Position numbers: made by a program
Shown: positions 4,337 to 10,300 of the stretch, piece after piece
Layout: every line of letters starts with the position of its first letter
Numbering within the stretch: the first letter of the stretch is position 1
Assembly (NCBI RefSeq): GCF_044324875.1
Contig: NZ_CP172185.1
From: Escherichia coli
GTDB lineage: Bacteria > Pseudomonadota > Gammaproteobacteria > Enterobacterales > Enterobacteriaceae
Direction: 5' to 3' (one strand)
DNA length: 64,000 nucleotides

Positions 4337-7300
4337 GGTTATGCGCTGATGCCTGATGCGGCGCGGGCGCGTCTTATCATACCCTGGAAGTCTGCGCCCG
4401 AATCGTAGGCCGCCTCCGCTATATTAACTGGCATTGGCAAATTACTCGTCACTACCTTTATTCATGTTTTTTTGGTCTTCATCCGGATAGTGTTTTTTTA
4501 GATATTCCAGGACGTTTTTATTGACCTTGTGTTGGGTATACACCCACCCTTTCCAGTAATCAGGCTGGTCCAGGTAAACTTCTGGCGGAATGGTAAAATC
4601 AGAAAGCGTTAACCATTCGGCTAACAGATCGGGGTTTCGTTTCTGGATTAACTGCAACAGCATAATCAGTGACATAGCTGAGGCAGGAGCCGTACTATCG
4701 CCACTTAAATATTTCCACACTGTTGACCGGTTCGAACGAAAAAGGATCGGTAGCAATGCCCGGTCCAGATTCATTTCATTAAAAATCTTCTCAAATTCAT
4801 TCATTTAAATTTTCCTGCCTGGCGTAAACCTCTTAAAAATTGAGATTTATCAAAGAAACGCATTTTAGCACACATCAGGAACCGCTTCACGTTTAGTCCA
4901 GAAACAGAATTTATTTCGCTTATCAAAACAAGTCTTTACTCTTTTTTACATTGAAAGAGCACAAAATGATTTTCGATTTTATTTATATAAGAAACATTTT
5001 TTGTTTCTTATTGGTGGTGTTTACGCTTACACCAGACAAAAATGCGCTTTACATCACACAAATGGCGGCGTAGATTTCGATTAAATTGCAACGCAGATTA
5101 ATTCTTATAACAACGTTTTACGTTGCTTATAGAAACAAATATGTGACTTACTTTGAAAGAGAAAAAATGCATGAAAACTGTAAAGCTGTCTTTACTGGCT
5201 GTCGTTGTTGCTACCGCGGTAAGTCCATCTGCGTTTGCGGGTGATACTGTTGAGGCGGCAACGACAGAATTAACGGTAATCCAGCCAGGAATGTCGCAAT
5301 CGGAAATTGATCAGAAAATTGGTCGATTTTTAGAAAGGACAGGGAATAGTGTAGCCGCACAAAATTATCTGATTGCGCATGATTACCAGACAACGACGCC
5401 TCAGGAAAATACAGCTGCTTCTCCCGTACAGCCCACCAATACGCTGAACCCGATAACCAATCAAGCGCAGACCGACCGCGACAACGGGCAGGATACCGCC
5501 ATTCAGGACGCGCAGCACGCCGCCAACTGGGCTTCACTGAAAGCTGATGACGCGTAGCACGCCATCACGGTGGCGCAGACGGATATTGATGCCAATACAG
5601 CCGCCATCACCGATACCCGTAATGATGTCTCCGCAGTGCAGTCAGACGTCACCAACATAAAAGGCGATGTCGCACATGCCCAGTCAACGGCTGACCATGC
5701 CAACGCTAACGCCAACACCGCTCTGATTAACGGCGTCAAACTTTCCGGTGCTGTGACAGAAAACAAAAACAACATCGAACAGAACCGCAGCGATATTGCT
5801 GACCAGCAGAAACTGTTGGCATCAAACGAGCAAAAACAGACCGACCGCGACAACGGGCAGGATACCGCCATTCAGGACGCACAACATGCCGCCAACTGGG
5901 CTTCACTGAAAGCTGATGACGCGCAGCACGCCATCACGGTGGCGCAGACGGATATTGATGCCAACAAAGCCGCCATCACCGACACCCGTAATGATGTCTC
6001 CGCAGTGCAGTCAGACGTCACCAACATAAAAGGCGATGTCGCACATGCCCAGTCAACGGCTGACCATGCCAACGCTAACGCCAACACCGCTCTGATTAAC
6101 GGCGTCAAACTTTCCGGTGCTGTGACAGAAAACAAAAATAATATCGAACAGAACCGCAGCGATATTGCTGACCAGCAGCAACAACTCGACGAAACCCGGA
6201 AAACCGTTGCCGCCACCGGGGATGTGCAGACTGCCGCCCGATATCAGAGCATGATTGACGCCAGACAGACAGCCGCTGCCAATGCGCAACAGGCACAAGC
6301 TGACACCCAGCAGCAACAAATGGACGATCAGCAGAAACAAATCGACGCGACGCAAAAAACGGTTTCCGCACTTGGCGATGCCCAGACCAACGCACATTAT
6401 CAAGAGATGGTTAACGCCGGACTGAGAGCACAAAATGATGCGAATGCGCGTACTGCAGCAGAACAAAAACAAAAAATAGATACTCTGGCGACTAACCAGG
6501 CAACGCAACAGCATATCGATAGTGTGCAGTACGGGGAACAAATTCAGCGTCTGGCGCAAGACTCAACACAAACGCATGAACAAATTGACAGCCTGACACA
6601 AGACGTAACCCAAACGCATCAGCAGTTAAGCAACACGCAAAAACGAGTAGCGGATAATAGCCAGCAGATTACTACGCTCAATAACCATTTCAGTTCGCTG
6701 AAAAACGAAGTTGAGGACAACCGTAAAGAAGCCAATGCGGGAACTGCATCAGCCATCGCTATCGCCTCACAACCACAGGTGAAAGCCGGTGACTTTATGA
6801 TGATGTCAGCGGGAGCGGGAACCTTCAACGGTGAATCTGCGGTGTCTGTCGGAACATCTTTTAATGCCGGAACGCATACCGTGATTAAAGCCGGTGTCTC
6901 TGCGGATACGCAATCTGATTTCGGCGCGGGTGTCGGCGTGGGATATTCTTTCTAATATTCCAATCCTCAATATAAATAAGAGCAAGGAAGCTTGCCGGGT
7001 TTCACCTCTTCATTAATTTGTACATTATTTAAGGTTAACAATGATGAAAAGCTCCATTAAATCGTTTTCCCTGCTGGCGGTTATATTACTGGCTGGCTGT
7101 AGTTCACCCACTTCCCGCATCGCAGATTGCCAGGCGCAGGGCGTCAGCCATGACACCTGTTATCTCGCAGAACAACAGCGTCAGACGGCTATTTTAAGTG
7201 CATCCGAGGCGCAGGCATTTAAAAATGCAGAAGCCGCACAACATGCCCAGGCGGCAAAGAAAGCCATTTATAAAGGATTTGGAATGACCTTTAGAATGAG

Positions 7301-10300
7301 CAGTAAAAACTTTGCTTATCTCAATGATTCATTATGTGCAATTGATGAAGACAATAAAGATGCCACTGTTTATCAGTCAGGTCTGTATAACGTCATTGTT
7401 TATCATCACACAGGAAAAGTCGCCTTAATGAAGGAAGGTCAATTTGTGGGTTATTTAAAATGAAGGAGCAAAGGAAAATACCCCTGACGCATATTATGAT
7501 TATCGGTGCGTTTATTTTTGCCTTCTTGCAAGTAGTATTATTAGCCTCCCTGGTTCACGCTGTGAATGTTAACAACGAAATCCAGGAAGGCTTATTTCAG
7601 TCGGGGCGCATTATGGTAGAAAGTTTGCAGCATATTCTTTCGGTGCAAACGGGGATTAACTGATTTTCACCCCGCCCGATGATGACAGCAGCCGGAGAGA
7701 TTTTCGATAATCGGGCAGTCGGCGCTGTCATCGCCAGGGCAGGCATTCGCCAGCGCCAACAGCTGGTTGCGCATGGATTGCAGTTCTTCGATATGTCGCT
7801 CGATCTCCGCCACTTTCTCCAGGGTGCGACGTTTGACGTCGGCACTGTGACGCTGCGGATCGTTAAACAGATTCACCAGCTCGCCGCTCTCTTCCAGGTT
7901 AAAGCCCACCTGGCGTGCCTGGCGCAGTAAGGTCAGTTCGTTGAGATGCTGCTGCGTGTAGGTTCGATAACCATTTTCGCTGCGCATCGGCGGCGTCACC
8001 AGCCCCTTCTCTTCATAGAAGCGAATGGCTTTGCTGGTCAGGCCGGTAATTTTTGCTACATCGCTAATGTTCATCGTTCGCGCAACGCCTCCTGTGCTTT
8101 GTTAAAGGGTTTCAACAGATAATCCAGCACGCTTTTTTTGCCGGTGCGGATATCGACCGTCGCCACCATACCGGGGAATATCGGAAACTGCTGTTTGCTT
8201 TTATTTTCCAGATGGTTGCTGAAAGTGCGAATGTACACCCGATAGTAATAAACATCGCGCCGCACTTCATCCTGCACGGTGTCTGGTGATATCACCGCCA
8301 CTTCTCCCGGCAGGCCGCCGTAGATGGAGTAATCGTAGGCGGTTATTTTCACCAGCGATTTTTGCCCCGGATGGATAAACGCCACATCGCGCGGGGAGAT
8401 TTTTGCCTCGATCAGCAGTTGCTCATCCAGCGGCACGATGGTCATCAGTTTACCACCGGGGGCAATAACGCCGCCAACCGTGGTGACGTCAATGTCCTGA
8501 ACAATGCCACGTACCGGCGCGGTAAAGTTGAGCCGGGTGAGAGAATCTTCCCGCCCGCGGATCACCGAACGCTGGGTTTCCACTTCCGCATTGGCTTTCG
8601 CTAACTCTTCGCGCGCCTGAACGTAATATTGCGTGCGCACGTCGCTAAGTTTGTTTTCCAGTTCATTGGCCTGGCGTTGCAGGCGCAGCACTTCGACGCT
8701 GCTCGCCGCCCCCTGTTTCACCAGCGGCTGGGTCATCGCCAGTTCGCGGTTGACCAGGCTAATCCCCTGCGTCAGCCCGGTGGTGGCTTTGTTCAGCCCA
8801 TCGCGGCGAGTGTTGTACAACGCCGTTTCCGACTCGATAAGTTCGGGGAATTTATTCAGTTCGTCAGGGAAGACCAGCGGTTTATTACTCACTTCCGCCC
8901 GCAGCCGCGCCGAGGTTGCCAGCGCCGCGTACAGCCGCGACATTGCTTCCTGGACGTCGGATTCCGTTTTGGTGCGGTTAAGCTGCGCCAGCGGCTGGCC
9001 CTGTTCAACAATATCGCCAACCTTGACGTCGAGATGATACAGAATTCCGCCTTCCAGCGACTGCACCACCTGTTCGCGCCCGGAAGGTTCTACCGTGCCG
9101 CTGCCGGTGGTGACTTCATCAAGCTGGAAGTACCACGCCCAGCCGAGAAAACAGAGCAGCATCACAGCGGTAACGCGTACCGCCAGCGCCGAACGCGGCA
9201 GGCGGGGTTCAGTCAGGCCACGGTTGTATTGCAGTTGTCCATTCATGCGGCAGACCCCTTATTCTTCTCCTGCAACACCACCCGTCGCGTCGTGGGTTCG
9301 CCCTGTTCACGCAAAATGGCCTCTTTCGCGCCATCCATCACAATCCGCCCCTGATCCATCACGATAATGCGGTCCACCAGTTGCAGCATCGCCGTGCGGT
9401 GAGTGGCGATGACCAGCGTGCGATGCCCAATCCACTGTTTCAGTTGTTCGATTAAATACGCTTCCGCCATTTCGTCCAGCGAGGCGCTGGGTTCATCGAG
9501 CAGCACGATATTGGGTTGAGAGATGAGCAGCCGCGCCAGCAGCAGCGTTTGCCGCTGACCACCAGAGAGGCCAAATCCCCCTTCCTGAATCATGTAGTTG
9601 AGGCCGTTTTTCTGCTTCTGCACAAACGGCAGCGCCCCGCTGAGGGTTAACGCGCGTTCGATATCTTCATCGCTGGCTTCCGGCATCCCCATCGTCAGGT
9701 TTTCCCGCAGCGAACCGAAAAAGAGTCTCCCGGTCTGGCTCAGCAGCCCCATGTCGCGGCGCAGATCCGCCGGATCAAGCTGACCGATGCTGATGTTATC
9801 CAGCAGCACCTGCCCCTGCTGGGCGATACGCATTCCGGCGAGCATTTGCAGTAGCGTTGATTTACCCGCGCCGTTGCGCCCAAGAATGGCGATTTTCTCT
9901 CCGGCCTGAATGTTGAGTTTGCCAATCGCCACATCGGCAATTTTCTCTTCTTCGTCGTAATAAAAGATAGCGTTGCTGAACTGATAATTGCCGTGTAGCA
10001 CCGCTTTATGCACCAGTTTGCCGTGCTCCGGCTGATCCACCGGGCGCTTCATCAGTTCATCAAGTCCGTTGCGCGCCACTTTCGCCTGCTGCCAGCGCGA
10101 GAGCACGCCGGATATCTGCGACAGCGGCGCGATGGTGCGCGAAGCCAGGATCGTCGTCCCGACCAGCGCGCCGGTAGTCATGTCACCGTTCATTACCATA
10201 AAGCAGCCCACCAACAGCACCACCACGTAGACGATGGATTGCACTTCCTGCGTCCAGGTGAGCAGTAGCCCGGTGAGAAAACGTTGCTTCATGCTGATGG

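What the first reader, a model, noticed from the sequence alone, without database searches (positions are those of the whole stretch)
7041..7663. Lipoprotein and small membrane protein pair of unknown function abutting cueR
The two translationally coupled genes converge on cueR with only 3 bp between stop codons (7663 and 7667). They are not part of the K-12 arrangement as I recall it and have no recognisable domain.
Basis: inference. Interest (0 to 1): 0.3.

Follow-up and report, generated by a model that had tools for sequence, protein, structure and literature searches.

The report
Adhesin-linked lipoprotein and membrane-protein pair

Summary
ORFs 7041-7463 (140 aa, lipobox LAGC) and 7460-7663 (67 aa, one transmembrane helix) overlap by ATGA. 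The second stops 3 bp before the convergent cueR stop. Neither matches a Pfam, NCBIfam, PHROG or PADLOC family, and K-12 lacks both.

Both genes are real (dN/dS 0.02-0.09 and 0-0.46). They occur in 1416 of 5426 complete E. coli genomes, like the YadA-anchor adhesin gene (1412) and the divergent HTH-like gene z0640 (1415).

Relatives at 40-70% identity sit just downstream of a trimeric autotransporter gene in eight different genomic contexts across Enterobacteriaceae.

Best reading (about 0.4): an envelope accessory pair for head-less trimeric autotransporters, analogous to but unrelated to SadB and TpgA. Family members also survive without an adhesin, so an independent periplasmic role stays open.

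The 3-bp abutment comes from deletion of a fifth gene.

In passing: the published "transcription factor GmrA" (z0639) is, by sequence, the autotransporter itself.

The parts
4257..7666 (.). Accessory island between the ybbJ stop and the cueR stop; equivalent to O-island 29 of EHEC O157:H7 (3,410 bp here, 2,643 bp in EDL933).
   Evidence: The OI-29 deletion arms of PMC5826968 map to 4209-4247 and 7667-7704. In K-12 cueR and ybbJ abut with 0 bp. Junction comparison.
4442..4804 (-). z0640 homologue, 120 aa, divergently transcribed; probable Xre-type helix-turn-helix regulator of the module.
   Evidence: The z0640 primer arm maps at 4805-4842. Weak Pfam hits to MqsA and Xre-like HTH, E 0.03-0.08. 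AF2 model has pLDDT 81.5, and its Foldseek top hits are dominated by Xre-type HTH proteins: HigA2 prob 0.99, P2 C, Aca2, C.Esp1396I. Conserved next to the TAA in Pseudocitrobacter. Found in 1415 of 5426 genomes.
5171..6955 (+). Trimeric autotransporter adhesin gene (z0639 homologue) with signal peptide, Ala/Gln-rich coiled-coil stalk and no head domain. It is a pseudogene in this strain: one in-frame stop at 5555-5557.
   Evidence: The translation shows 594 codons with a single internal stop. The two ORFs 5153-5557 and 5570-6955 are in the same frame. RefSeq labels it a YadA-like family protein.
5468..6182 (+). 369-bp (123-codon) tandem duplication, 1.9 copies, inside the adhesin stalk; the nonsense codon lies in the first copy.
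   Evidence: Tandem Repeats Finder: period 369, 97% matches; translation.
6773..6952 (+). YadA-like membrane anchor (C-terminal beta-barrel segment ending GVGYSF).
   Evidence: Pfam PF03895, E 8.1e-12, residues 402-461 of the 461-aa ORF. The anchor DNA is present in 1412 of 5426 genomes.
6956..7040 (+). 85-bp gap between adhesin and lipoprotein genes. No plus-strand promoter-like or terminator-like site was found; AAGG lies 8-11 nt before the ATG.
   Evidence: Scan; sequence. Gaps of 53-159 bp occur in other loci.
7041..7463 (+). [not shown]
   Evidence: The z0638 deletion arms flank exactly this ORF. AF2 model has pLDDT 83, and above 90 for the beta domain. Family alignment; lipobox survey; dN/dS 0.02-0.09.
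7460..7463 (+). ATGA start/stop overlap, the basis for translational coupling.
   Evidence: Sequence. The same overlap occurs in Pseudocitrobacter loci L002, L006 and L019.
7460..7663 (+). Small membrane protein gene, 67 aa. Basic N-terminus, one transmembrane helix (about residues 12-34, 7493-7561), and a C-terminal segment of about 33 residues predicted to face the periplasm.
   Evidence: Hydropathy and charge analysis. RefSeq WP_000664216.1. Homologues only in Escherichia and Pseudocitrobacter. dN/dS 0-0.46 within Escherichia.
7664..7666 (.). 3-bp spacer between the convergent stop codons. It marks the junction left after loss of a fifth island gene.
   Evidence: In E. whittamii, Escherichia sp. 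E1V33 and strain E166 an extra ORF lies here, so about 0.8 kb (E166) to 1.3 kb separates the small gene from cueR.
7667..8074 (-). cueR, the core copper-responsive MerR-family regulator. It is a neighbour, not part of the module.
   Evidence: NF007590, E 5.9e-93. The module occurs at other loci, away from cueR, in other genera.

Best explanation
The two genes are the distal part of a small adhesin module, O-island 29. The module has a divergent Xre-like regulator gene (z0640), a short head-less trimeric autotransporter adhesin gene (z0639), the lipoprotein gene (z0638) and the 67-aa membrane-protein gene.

Shown: both genes are real, under purifying selection, translationally coupled, and inherited together with the adhesin gene.

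Inferred from sequence and model:
- The lipoprotein is exported, lipidated at Cys20 and, having Ser rather than Asp at +2, sorted to the inner leaflet of the outer membrane.
- From there a two-cysteine helical region and a spacer that varies in length between homologues hold an eight-stranded beta domain in the periplasm.
- The small protein sits in the inner membrane, N-terminus in, with a C-terminal segment of about 33 residues in the periplasm.

Inferred from conserved gene order: the pair is made in fixed ratio from the adhesin's transcript. It acts in the periplasm on the adhesin, on its passage, trimerisation, insertion or anchoring. The role is analogous to SadB for SadA or TpgA for AtaA, but the proteins are unrelated to either.
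For: Island identity and gene assignment: the primer arms of PMC5826968 map exactly.

Co-inheritance in E. coli: pair 1416, adhesin anchor 1412 and z0640 1415 of 5426 complete genomes. All are single-copy and chromosomal. The type I secretion adaptor on the other side of cueR is in only 961. UTI89 keeps OI-29 without that secretion system.

Conserved order across genera. A family member lies directly downstream of, or two genes from, a YadA-anchor gene in eight distinct contexts:
- Escherichia OI-29
- Pseudocitrobacter, between fetA and qmcA (L006, L019)
- P. faecalis, near a recombinase (L002)
- Enterobacter asburiae, at thiMD (L003)
- L008, L024, L029 and L032

Operon signals: short intergenic gaps, and no plus-strand promoter-like or terminator-like site between the adhesin and lipoprotein genes.

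Expression: all three named OI-29 genes are expressed in DMEM and co-repressed on HeLa contact (qRT-PCR -10.6, -8.5 and -5.2 fold; PMC5826968 Table S3).

Gene reality: ATGA coupling is kept at 49-71% identity, and selection is purifying.

Topology: lipobox in 24 of 32 family members, never Asp at +2; confident beta-domain model; single transmembrane helix with a basic N-terminus.

Precedent: SadB and TpgA are the only described helpers. The 2026 survey that found no others required a YadA head domain, which this adhesin lacks.
Against: No experiment links the pair to the adhesin. Deleting all of OI-29 did not change adherence of O157:H7 to HeLa or Caco-2 cells, and deleting z0638 gave no motility phenotype (PMC5826968).

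Family members persist as intact genes without any adjacent autotransporter gene. This is seen at the same loci where others have one: wrbA locus L009/L034 versus L008, and thiMD locus L033/L021 versus L003. It is also seen on phage-plasmid-like contigs (L027, L030).

The small protein is confined to Escherichia and Pseudocitrobacter.

In this window the adhesin gene carries a nonsense codon, yet the pair is intact.

There is no detectable homology to SadB, YajI or TpgA.

Localisation and topology are predictions.
Confidence: 0.4

Rival explanations
1. The lipoprotein is an autonomous periplasmic binding or inhibitor protein. It could be a shield against a host or competitor enzyme in the manner of the MliC/PliC lysozyme inhibitors, or a metal- or acid-stress-related binder. 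It merely shares a surface and colonisation islet and its regulation with the adhesin. The small protein would be its membrane partner or regulator.

For: Family members live on without an adhesin gene, and eight of 32 are soluble periplasmic versions with an ordinary signal peptide.

The N and C domains occur as two separate genes in L030.

Many homologues have histidine-rich linkers, and two loci have histidine-rich secreted partners instead of an adhesin.

Deleting OI-29 does not alter adherence.
Confidence: 0.3
2. The pair is mobile-element cargo acting at the outer membrane, for example surface or superinfection exclusion by blocking a receptor. A lipoprotein of the TraT, Cor or Llp type, or a TraV-like envelope component, would do this.
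For: Seventeen of 32 members give weak hits to the TraV lipoprotein model, best E 1.6e-5. The motif C-x-D-T-C-x3-E-Q is shared with F-plasmid TraV. One homologue's N-terminus hits the PHROG for Cor exclusion protein, E 6.2e-5. Homologues lie on phage-plasmid-like contigs with Rep3 and tail-spike genes, next to a recombinase and next to an HNH-domain gene.
Against: All these hits fall far below family cut-offs (19.6 bits against 44.75 for TraV). They cover the signal peptide plus a short motif, and hhalign probability is 6.6%. There are no type IV secretion neighbours. tblastn finds no match in 50,697 phage genomes and only 15 plasmid records; the two inspected carry chromosome-like segments and two others are chromosome-sized E. 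coli records. In E. coli the genes are fixed at one chromosomal site.
Confidence: 0.1
3. A self-contained two-component envelope device such as a spanin-like lysis pair or a small toxin/antidote pair.
For: An outer-membrane lipoprotein coupled to a small inner-membrane protein with a periplasmic segment superficially recalls o-spanin and i-spanin. The translational coupling resembles that of toxin-antitoxin pairs.
Against: There are no holin or endolysin neighbours and no PHROG or PADLOC hit. The size relation is the reverse of that in spanins (from general knowledge of Rz/Rz1). The lipoprotein carries a folded 65-residue beta domain. Most family members lack any small partner.
Confidence: 0.03

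Closest known systems
SadB, the lipoprotein that assists the trimeric autotransporter SadA in Salmonella and E. coli (PMC3953254)
   Same: A small lipoprotein encoded in the same operon as a trimeric autotransporter. It is lost together with the adhesin in K-12. The architecture is lipid anchor, then polar Gln/Ala-rich helix, then C-terminal beta domain. The family is restricted to enterobacteria.
TpgA, the periplasmic partner of the Acinetobacter adhesin AtaA (described in 10.64898/2026.01.22.700529 and PMC12523085)
   Same: A helper encoded next to a trimeric autotransporter gene and acting on the periplasmic side of the outer membrane.
   Different: TpgA has a BamE-like domain and an OmpA-type peptidoglycan-binding domain. 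Neither domain is found here.
MliC/PliC lysozyme inhibitors and Neisseria adhesin complex protein (Pfam PF09864)
   Different: There is no sequence or profile similarity beyond the signal peptide. The conserved inhibitor loops were not found. This family has an extra N-terminal cysteine/helix region.
[not shown]
   Same: The same gene: the published deletion arms flank the orthologous ORF. The O157 protein is 98-99% identical to the window's (2 of 140 residues differ).
   Different: Nothing differs in kind. The paper leaves it as a hypothetical protein with no motility phenotype and does not list the 67-aa gene.
TraV, the outer-membrane lipoprotein of F-type conjugation systems (TIGR02747)
   Same: Lipobox followed by two cysteines in a similar short motif (LLxGC...C...DTCxxxEQ).
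   Different: Scores are far below the family cut-off. The rest of TraV has no counterpart and there are no conjugation genes nearby.

Membership tests
Bacterial lipoprotein (signal peptidase II substrate) | N-terminal signal peptide ending in a lipobox [LVI][ASTVI][GAS]C | tested here: met
   L-A-G-C with Cys20. The lipobox is conserved in 24 of 32 family members.
Bacterial lipoprotein (signal peptidase II substrate) | Actual lipidation and membrane localisation | not testable with these tools
   Needs fractionation, globomycin sensitivity or mass spectrometry. Outer-membrane sorting is inferred from Ser at +2; no member has Asp there.
O-island 29 of EHEC O157:H7 | Insert between ybbJ and cueR carrying z0638, z0639 and z0640 | tested here: met
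   The published deletion arms map onto the window and onto O157:H7 strain TR01. Gene order is the same in four other island-bearing strains, 86-24, 7/2, UTI89 and Ecol_316.
SadB/YajI family of TAA-assisting lipoproteins | Inner-membrane retention signal (Asp at +2) | tested here: not met
   +2 is Ser here. Across the family it is S, T, Q, A, V or Y, never D. The SadB feature is from PMC3953254.
SadB/YajI family of TAA-assisting lipoproteins | Homologous MATH-like C-terminal domain | tested here: not met
   [not shown]
SadB/YajI family of TAA-assisting lipoproteins | Encoded in an operon with a trimeric autotransporter gene | tested here: met
   The gene is adjacent on the same strand, 85 bp downstream, in Escherichia and in seven further contexts. 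It is downstream rather than upstream.
SadB/YajI family of TAA-assisting lipoproteins | Forms a trimer and enhances surface display of the adhesin | not testable with these tools
   Only monomer prediction is available, and no experiment exists.
TpgA-type TAA partner | BamE-like (SmpA_OmlA) domain, with or without an OmpA peptidoglycan-binding domain | tested here: not met
   The window protein has no Pfam hit, and neither domain is among the 25 most-matched of 30 families listed for the 32 members.
MliC/PliC lysozyme inhibitors (PF09864) | Match to the family profile | tested here: not met
   None of 32 members matches at E up to 1. hhalign against an MliC alignment aligns 23 columns of signal peptide only.
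MliC/PliC lysozyme inhibitors (PF09864) | Eight-stranded beta-barrel fold | tested here: inconclusive
   [not shown]
MliC/PliC lysozyme inhibitors (PF09864) | Inhibits c-type lysozyme | not testable with these tools
   Biochemical assay needed.
TraV (TIGR02747) | Score above the family cut-off and a type IV secretion gene neighbourhood | tested here: not met
   19.6 bits against a cut-off of 44.75. hhalign aligns 29 columns at probability 6.6%. No tra genes are nearby.

The most novel reading that the evidence does not exclude
The pair defines a third, structurally unrelated class of helper for trimeric autotransporters, after SadB and TpgA. An outer-membrane lipoprotein with a small periplasmic barrel and a coupled inner-membrane micro-protein would together receive or anchor short, head-less adhesins as they cross the periplasm. 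The recent global survey missed this class because it required a YadA head domain.
Probability: 0.25. Interest if true: 0.55.

Novelty: new variant of a known kind. Interest (0 to 1): 0.35.

Why it matters
Only two helper proteins for trimeric autotransporter adhesins are known, and a 2026 survey reported no further candidates. If this pair really serves the adjacent adhesin, it gives a third and different solution. It occurs in a quarter of complete E. coli genomes, including O157:H7, UTI89 and, per PMC5826968, K1 strains such as RS218, and it would be easy to test genetically.

It also matters for how O-island 29 is read. The gene published as the transcription factor GmrA is, by sequence, the outer-membrane adhesin of this module. 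The only helix-turn-helix-like gene in the island is z0640. The reported control of motility by this island therefore deserves re-examination.

If the pair proves independent of the adhesin, it is simply one more uncharacterised enterobacterial lipoprotein family.

Tried and rejected
- MliC/PliC homology: tested with Pfam on all 32 members and by hhalign against an MliC alignment built for the purpose. Only the signal peptides align.
- TraV relationship: only a short motif is shared.
- "XAC1346 secretion chaperone" hit (E 0.001, 19.6 bits against a cut-off of 120): no literature found, not pursued.
- Anti-phage defence or phage origin: no PADLOC or PHROG hit for the window proteins and no match in 50,697 phage genomes.
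- Linkage to the type I secretion and giant adhesin island on the other side of cueR: rejected. 961 versus 1416 genomes, and UTI89 has one island without the other.
- Functional link to cueR or copper: rejected as positional coincidence. The module sits at other loci in other genera, and in many Escherichia another gene separates it from cueR.
- AFDB fold search: the library was unavailable.
- The search for related loci with the broad alignments failed for lack of a conserved stretch. A six-sequence alignment worked but returned only six loci.
- Complex or trimer prediction was not attempted, because the tool returns no inter-chain information.
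Full report
**Observation.** The window carries ORF 7041-7463 (140 aa) and ORF 7460-7663 (67 aa) on the plus strand. 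The second ATG overlaps the first TGA as ATGA. The second ORF's stop ends at 7663, 3 bp before the stop of the minus-strand gene 7667-8074. That gene is cueR (NF007590, E 5.9e-93).

The 140-aa product starts MMKSSIKSFSLLAVILLAGC, with a lipobox and Cys20. The 67-aa product has a basic N-terminus and one hydrophobic helix (Kyte-Doolittle mean 2.65 over residues 14-32). A C-terminal segment of about 33 residues follows it. Neither protein matches a family in Pfam, NCBIfam, PHROGs or PADLOC above threshold.

**Where this is.** The window is an E. coli chromosome and is 100% identical to strain Ecol_316 for the three island segments compared. The gene order runs as follows:
- fetB, fetA, qmcA, ybbJ
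- a 3,410-bp insert
- cueR
- a type I secretion system with a 6,875-aa SiiEA/BapA-like adhesin
- ybaT, glsA

In K-12, cueR and ybbJ abut with no base between their stop codons. The insert is 4257-7666.

A literature search for EDL933 locus tags led to Yang et al. 2018 (PMC5826968), which describes O-island 29, holding z0638, z0639 ("gmrA") and z0640. I mapped their lambda-Red homology arms onto the window and onto O157:H7 strain TR01:
- z0638 is exactly the lipoprotein ORF.
- z0639 is the 1,017-bp YadA-family gene.
- z0640 is the divergent 120-aa gene (window 4442-4804).

The 67-aa gene is not among the three genes that paper lists for OI-29, but RefSeq annotates it (WP_000664216.1). The paper reports that z0638 is a hypothetical protein. 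Its deletion does not affect motility, and deleting the whole island does not affect adherence to HeLa or Caco-2 cells. All three genes are expressed in DMEM and strongly repressed on HeLa contact.

**Are they genes?** Yes. Codon alignments covered seven Escherichia alleles, including E. whittamii and Escherichia sp. E1V33.
- Lipoprotein: dN/dS 0.02-0.09 at dS 0.07-0.43.
- Small protein: 0-0.46. Nearly all its replacements lie in the short N-terminal tail or at the last few residues. The helix shows only conservative changes in E. whittamii, and the rest of the C-terminal segment is unchanged.

In Pseudocitrobacter the lipoprotein is 49-71% identical and the small protein 43-47% identical over the aligned part, and both genes and the ATGA overlap are conserved.

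**Distribution and linkage in E. coli.** Counts among 5,426 complete genomes, all single-copy and chromosomal:

| Sequence | Genomes |
|---|---|
| lipoprotein + small-protein pair | 1416 |
| adhesin anchor | 1412 |
| z0640 | 1415 |
| type I secretion adaptor beyond cueR | 961 |

UTI89 has the island with only a stub of the adaptor gene. So the pair travels with the autotransporter gene and the regulator-like gene, not with the secretion system.

**Linkage beyond E. coli.** Word-indexed and exhaustive protein searches found a narrow family: 55 and 107 hits, and every hit that carries a source name is from Enterobacteriaceae. I read the neighbourhoods of diverse members.

A YadA-anchor gene lies directly upstream, or two genes upstream, in eight different contexts:
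- Escherichia, between ybbJ and cueR
- Pseudocitrobacter, between fetA and qmcA (L006, L019)
- P. faecalis, beside a recombinase and with two adhesin genes (L002)
- Enterobacter asburiae, at thiMD (L003)
- L008, L024, L029 and L032

The z0640-like gene accompanies the module in Escherichia and Pseudocitrobacter. Trimeric autotransporter genes are few per genome, so repeated adjacency at 40-50% protein identity and at several insertion sites is conserved synteny rather than chance. This step is an inference: the loci share ancestry and are not independent trials.

Against an obligatory tie, intact family members also occur without any adhesin gene:
- L004
- the wrbA locus in L009 and L034
- the thiMD locus in L033 and L021
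- Chimaeribacter, L010
- phage-plasmid-like contigs L027 and L030

In L021 and L010 the upstream partner is a secreted alanine-rich protein with a histidine-rich tail.

**Anatomy of the lipoprotein.** A 32-sequence alignment gave an AlphaFold2 model with mean pLDDT 83. The model and alignment show these parts:
- a short helix at residues 23-32
- a long helix at residues 37-71
- an eight-stranded beta domain at residues 76-139, with pLDDT above 90
- an N-terminal region carrying two conserved cysteines (RMxxCExxGxSxDxCYxAEQNRQ)
- a spacer of variable length, histidine-rich in many homologues
- a conserved QHAQAAKK motif just before the beta domain

The two halves behave as separable modules. 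Many database hits cover only one half. In L030 the halves are two adjacent genes, whereas L027 has them fused. Twenty-four of 32 members have a lipobox and none has Asp at +2. By the E. coli Lol rule (established knowledge) this predicts outer-membrane sorting. Eight members are soluble periplasmic forms with an ordinary signal peptide.

- next come PliC (6.4), E. coli MliC/YdhA (6.2), Neisseria ACP (6.1), Brucella PliC (6.0) and PhiA (5.5)
- then avidins and other small barrels

Foldseek has no hit below E 0.2. The family profile finds no PDB chain by sequence at E up to 10.

I tested the MliC lead directly. No member hits Pfam MliC at E up to 1. hhalign against an MliC alignment built from K-12 mliC homologues aligns only the signal peptide and lipobox. 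The resemblance is therefore one of general fold class only.

The N-terminal motif gives weak hits to TraV (17 of 32 members, best E 1.6e-5). Against F-plasmid TraV this is 29 columns at 6.6% probability. It is a short shared motif, not membership.

**Comparison with known helpers.** SadB (PMC3953254) is an inner-membrane lipoprotein with Asp at +2. It has a polar trimeric coiled coil and a MATH-like domain, is encoded upstream of sadA, and improves SadA display. TpgA has BamE-like and OmpA domains.

The present lipoprotein shares the concept: it is adhesin-linked and lost with the adhesin in K-12, and it has a lipid anchor, a polar helix and a beta domain. It differs in sorting signal, gene order and fold, and it shows no detectable homology to either helper. 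A 2026 preprint searched the neighbours of trimeric autotransporters for new helpers and found none, but it required a YadA head domain. The adhesin here matches only the anchor domain, so it was outside that screen.

**Mechanism proposed.**

*Shown:* real genes; coupling; co-inheritance; conserved order; expression of z0638, z0639 and z0640 in DMEM with parallel repression on HeLa contact.

*Inferred:*
- The pair is co-transcribed with the adhesin gene. The gap is 85 bp, and no plus-strand promoter-like or terminator-like site was found between them.
- The lipoprotein hangs from the outer membrane into the periplasm.
- The small protein spans the inner membrane, N-terminus in.
- Together they act on the adhesin during or after its passage.

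I put this at about 0.4. The main rival, at about 0.3, is an adhesin-independent periplasmic binder or inhibitor. This rival is favoured by the adhesin-less family members and by the lack of an adherence phenotype. Exclusion-type or lysis-type functions have little support.

**The 3-bp abutment.** In E. whittamii and Escherichia sp. E1V33 the same island carries a further ORF of about 400 codons with no family match. It lies between the small gene and cueR, and it is this ORF that abuts cueR. Strain E166 has a frameshifted copy. DNA of this ORF is present in 966 E. coli genomes, full-length (at least 80% of the query) in 271.

If, as seems likely but was not verified, those 966 are a subset of the 1416, about 450 island-bearing genomes have lost it completely. 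The window, O157:H7 and UTI89 belong to that group. The deletion left the small gene's stop 3 bp from cueR and changed its C-terminus from GING to GIN. The tight convergence is thus a deletion scar at a locus where convergent genes already abut in K-12. It is not evidence of a functional tie to cueR.

**State of the adhesin here.** The adhesin gene in this window reads 594 codons with one in-frame stop at 5555-5557. The stop lies in the first copy of a 369-bp tandem duplication. RefSeq annotates only the distal 349 codons in the identical strain. In O157:H7 86-24, strain 7/2, E166 and UTI89 it is an intact 338-aa YadA-family protein. In O157:H7 TR01 it has an internal stop.

**Verdict.** The finding is correct and modestly interesting. 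The genes are already catalogued as hypothetical members of a named island. What is new here is the cross-genus adhesin linkage, the domain anatomy, and the exclusion of the obvious families. Function remains untested.

Noticed in passing
window 5171-6955; L001 10979-11995; L012 2365-3381: The gene published as the transcriptional activator GmrA (z0639; PMC5826968) is, by primer mapping, the YadA-family trimeric autotransporter gene. It has a signal peptide (MKTV...) and a Pfam YadA_anchor match (E 1.1e-11), ends GVGYSF, and otherwise gives only spurious coiled-coil hits. The paper's cloning primers start at that signal peptide and end at that anchor.
   Followed up: partly
window 4442-4804 (minus strand): z0640 is the only helix-turn-helix-like gene in the island. 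Pfam hits are weak, but the AF2 model (pLDDT 81.5) has Foldseek best matches dominated by Xre-type DNA-binding domains: HigA2, P2 C repressor, Aca2, C.Esp1396I and MqsA. It is conserved next to the adhesin gene in Pseudocitrobacter.
   Followed up: yes
window 5468-6182 and 5555-5557: The adhesin stalk contains a 369-bp tandem duplication (1.9 copies, 97% identical). The single nonsense codon that inactivates the gene in this strain lies in the first copy.
   Followed up: yes
L007 7709-8938; L005; L015 4249-4928: A fifth island gene of about 400 codons with no family match lies between the small gene and cueR in cryptic Escherichia clades. Its DNA is in 966 E. coli genomes, 271 of them covering at least 80% of the query. 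It is absent from the window.
   Followed up: partly
window 8071-8074 and 8075-8180; L014 2398-2500: The cueR start codon overlaps the stop of the type I secretion adaptor gene (ATGA). K-12 still carries about 100 bp of that adaptor gene's 3' end, with a 1-bp deletion, upstream of cueR. The secretion island was therefore lost by deletion in the K-12 lineage rather than gained elsewhere.
   Followed up: partly
window 4257-4296: The sequence straight after the ybbJ stop (GCCTGA|TGCGACGCTGACGCGTCTTATCATGCCTAC) looks like a REP element, judged from memory of the REP consensus. The last codons of ybbJ differ from K-12.
   Followed up: no
L030 3741-4384 versus L027 4001-4549: On phage-plasmid-like contigs (Rep3; tail-spike gene on L027) the N-terminal cysteine/helix module and the beta-barrel module are two adjacent genes in one contig and a single fused gene in another. 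The 85-aa lipoprotein ends in a histidine run.
   Followed up: partly
L021 3712-4860; L010 6101-6757; linkers in P0019, P0056, P0061, P0063, P0067: Histidine-rich stretches recur in the spacer of many family members. In two loci they also occur in the C-terminal tails of secreted alanine-rich proteins that take the adhesin's place upstream. The conserved QHAQAAKK motif recalls the repeats of acid-shock protein Asr: two members give weak Pfam Asr hits, E 0.27.
   Followed up: no
L008 (CACSKA010000011.1): A contig labelled Chryseobacterium sp. 18061 has the same wrbA-side gene order as Enterobacter sp. CC120223-11 (L009), plus an enterobacterial-type adhesin anchor. It looks like contamination or mislabelling.
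   Followed up: no
window 7464-7485 and 7225-7239 (minus strand): The only terminator-like hairpins downstream of cueR on its own strand lie inside the small gene and the lipoprotein gene. The cueR 3' UTR would therefore be antisense to the pair.
   Followed up: no
L017 (strain PKF4) 2639-3635: In one E. coli strain an IS1 element has replaced most of the island, leaving stubs of z0640 and of the small gene.
   Followed up: no
window 11409-32036 (minus strand): An intact 6,875-codon ORF corresponds to the SiiEA/BapA-related giant adhesin, which is frameshifted in O157:H7 TR01. Its type I secretion genes and a 451-aa gene not examined here flank it.
   Followed up: no
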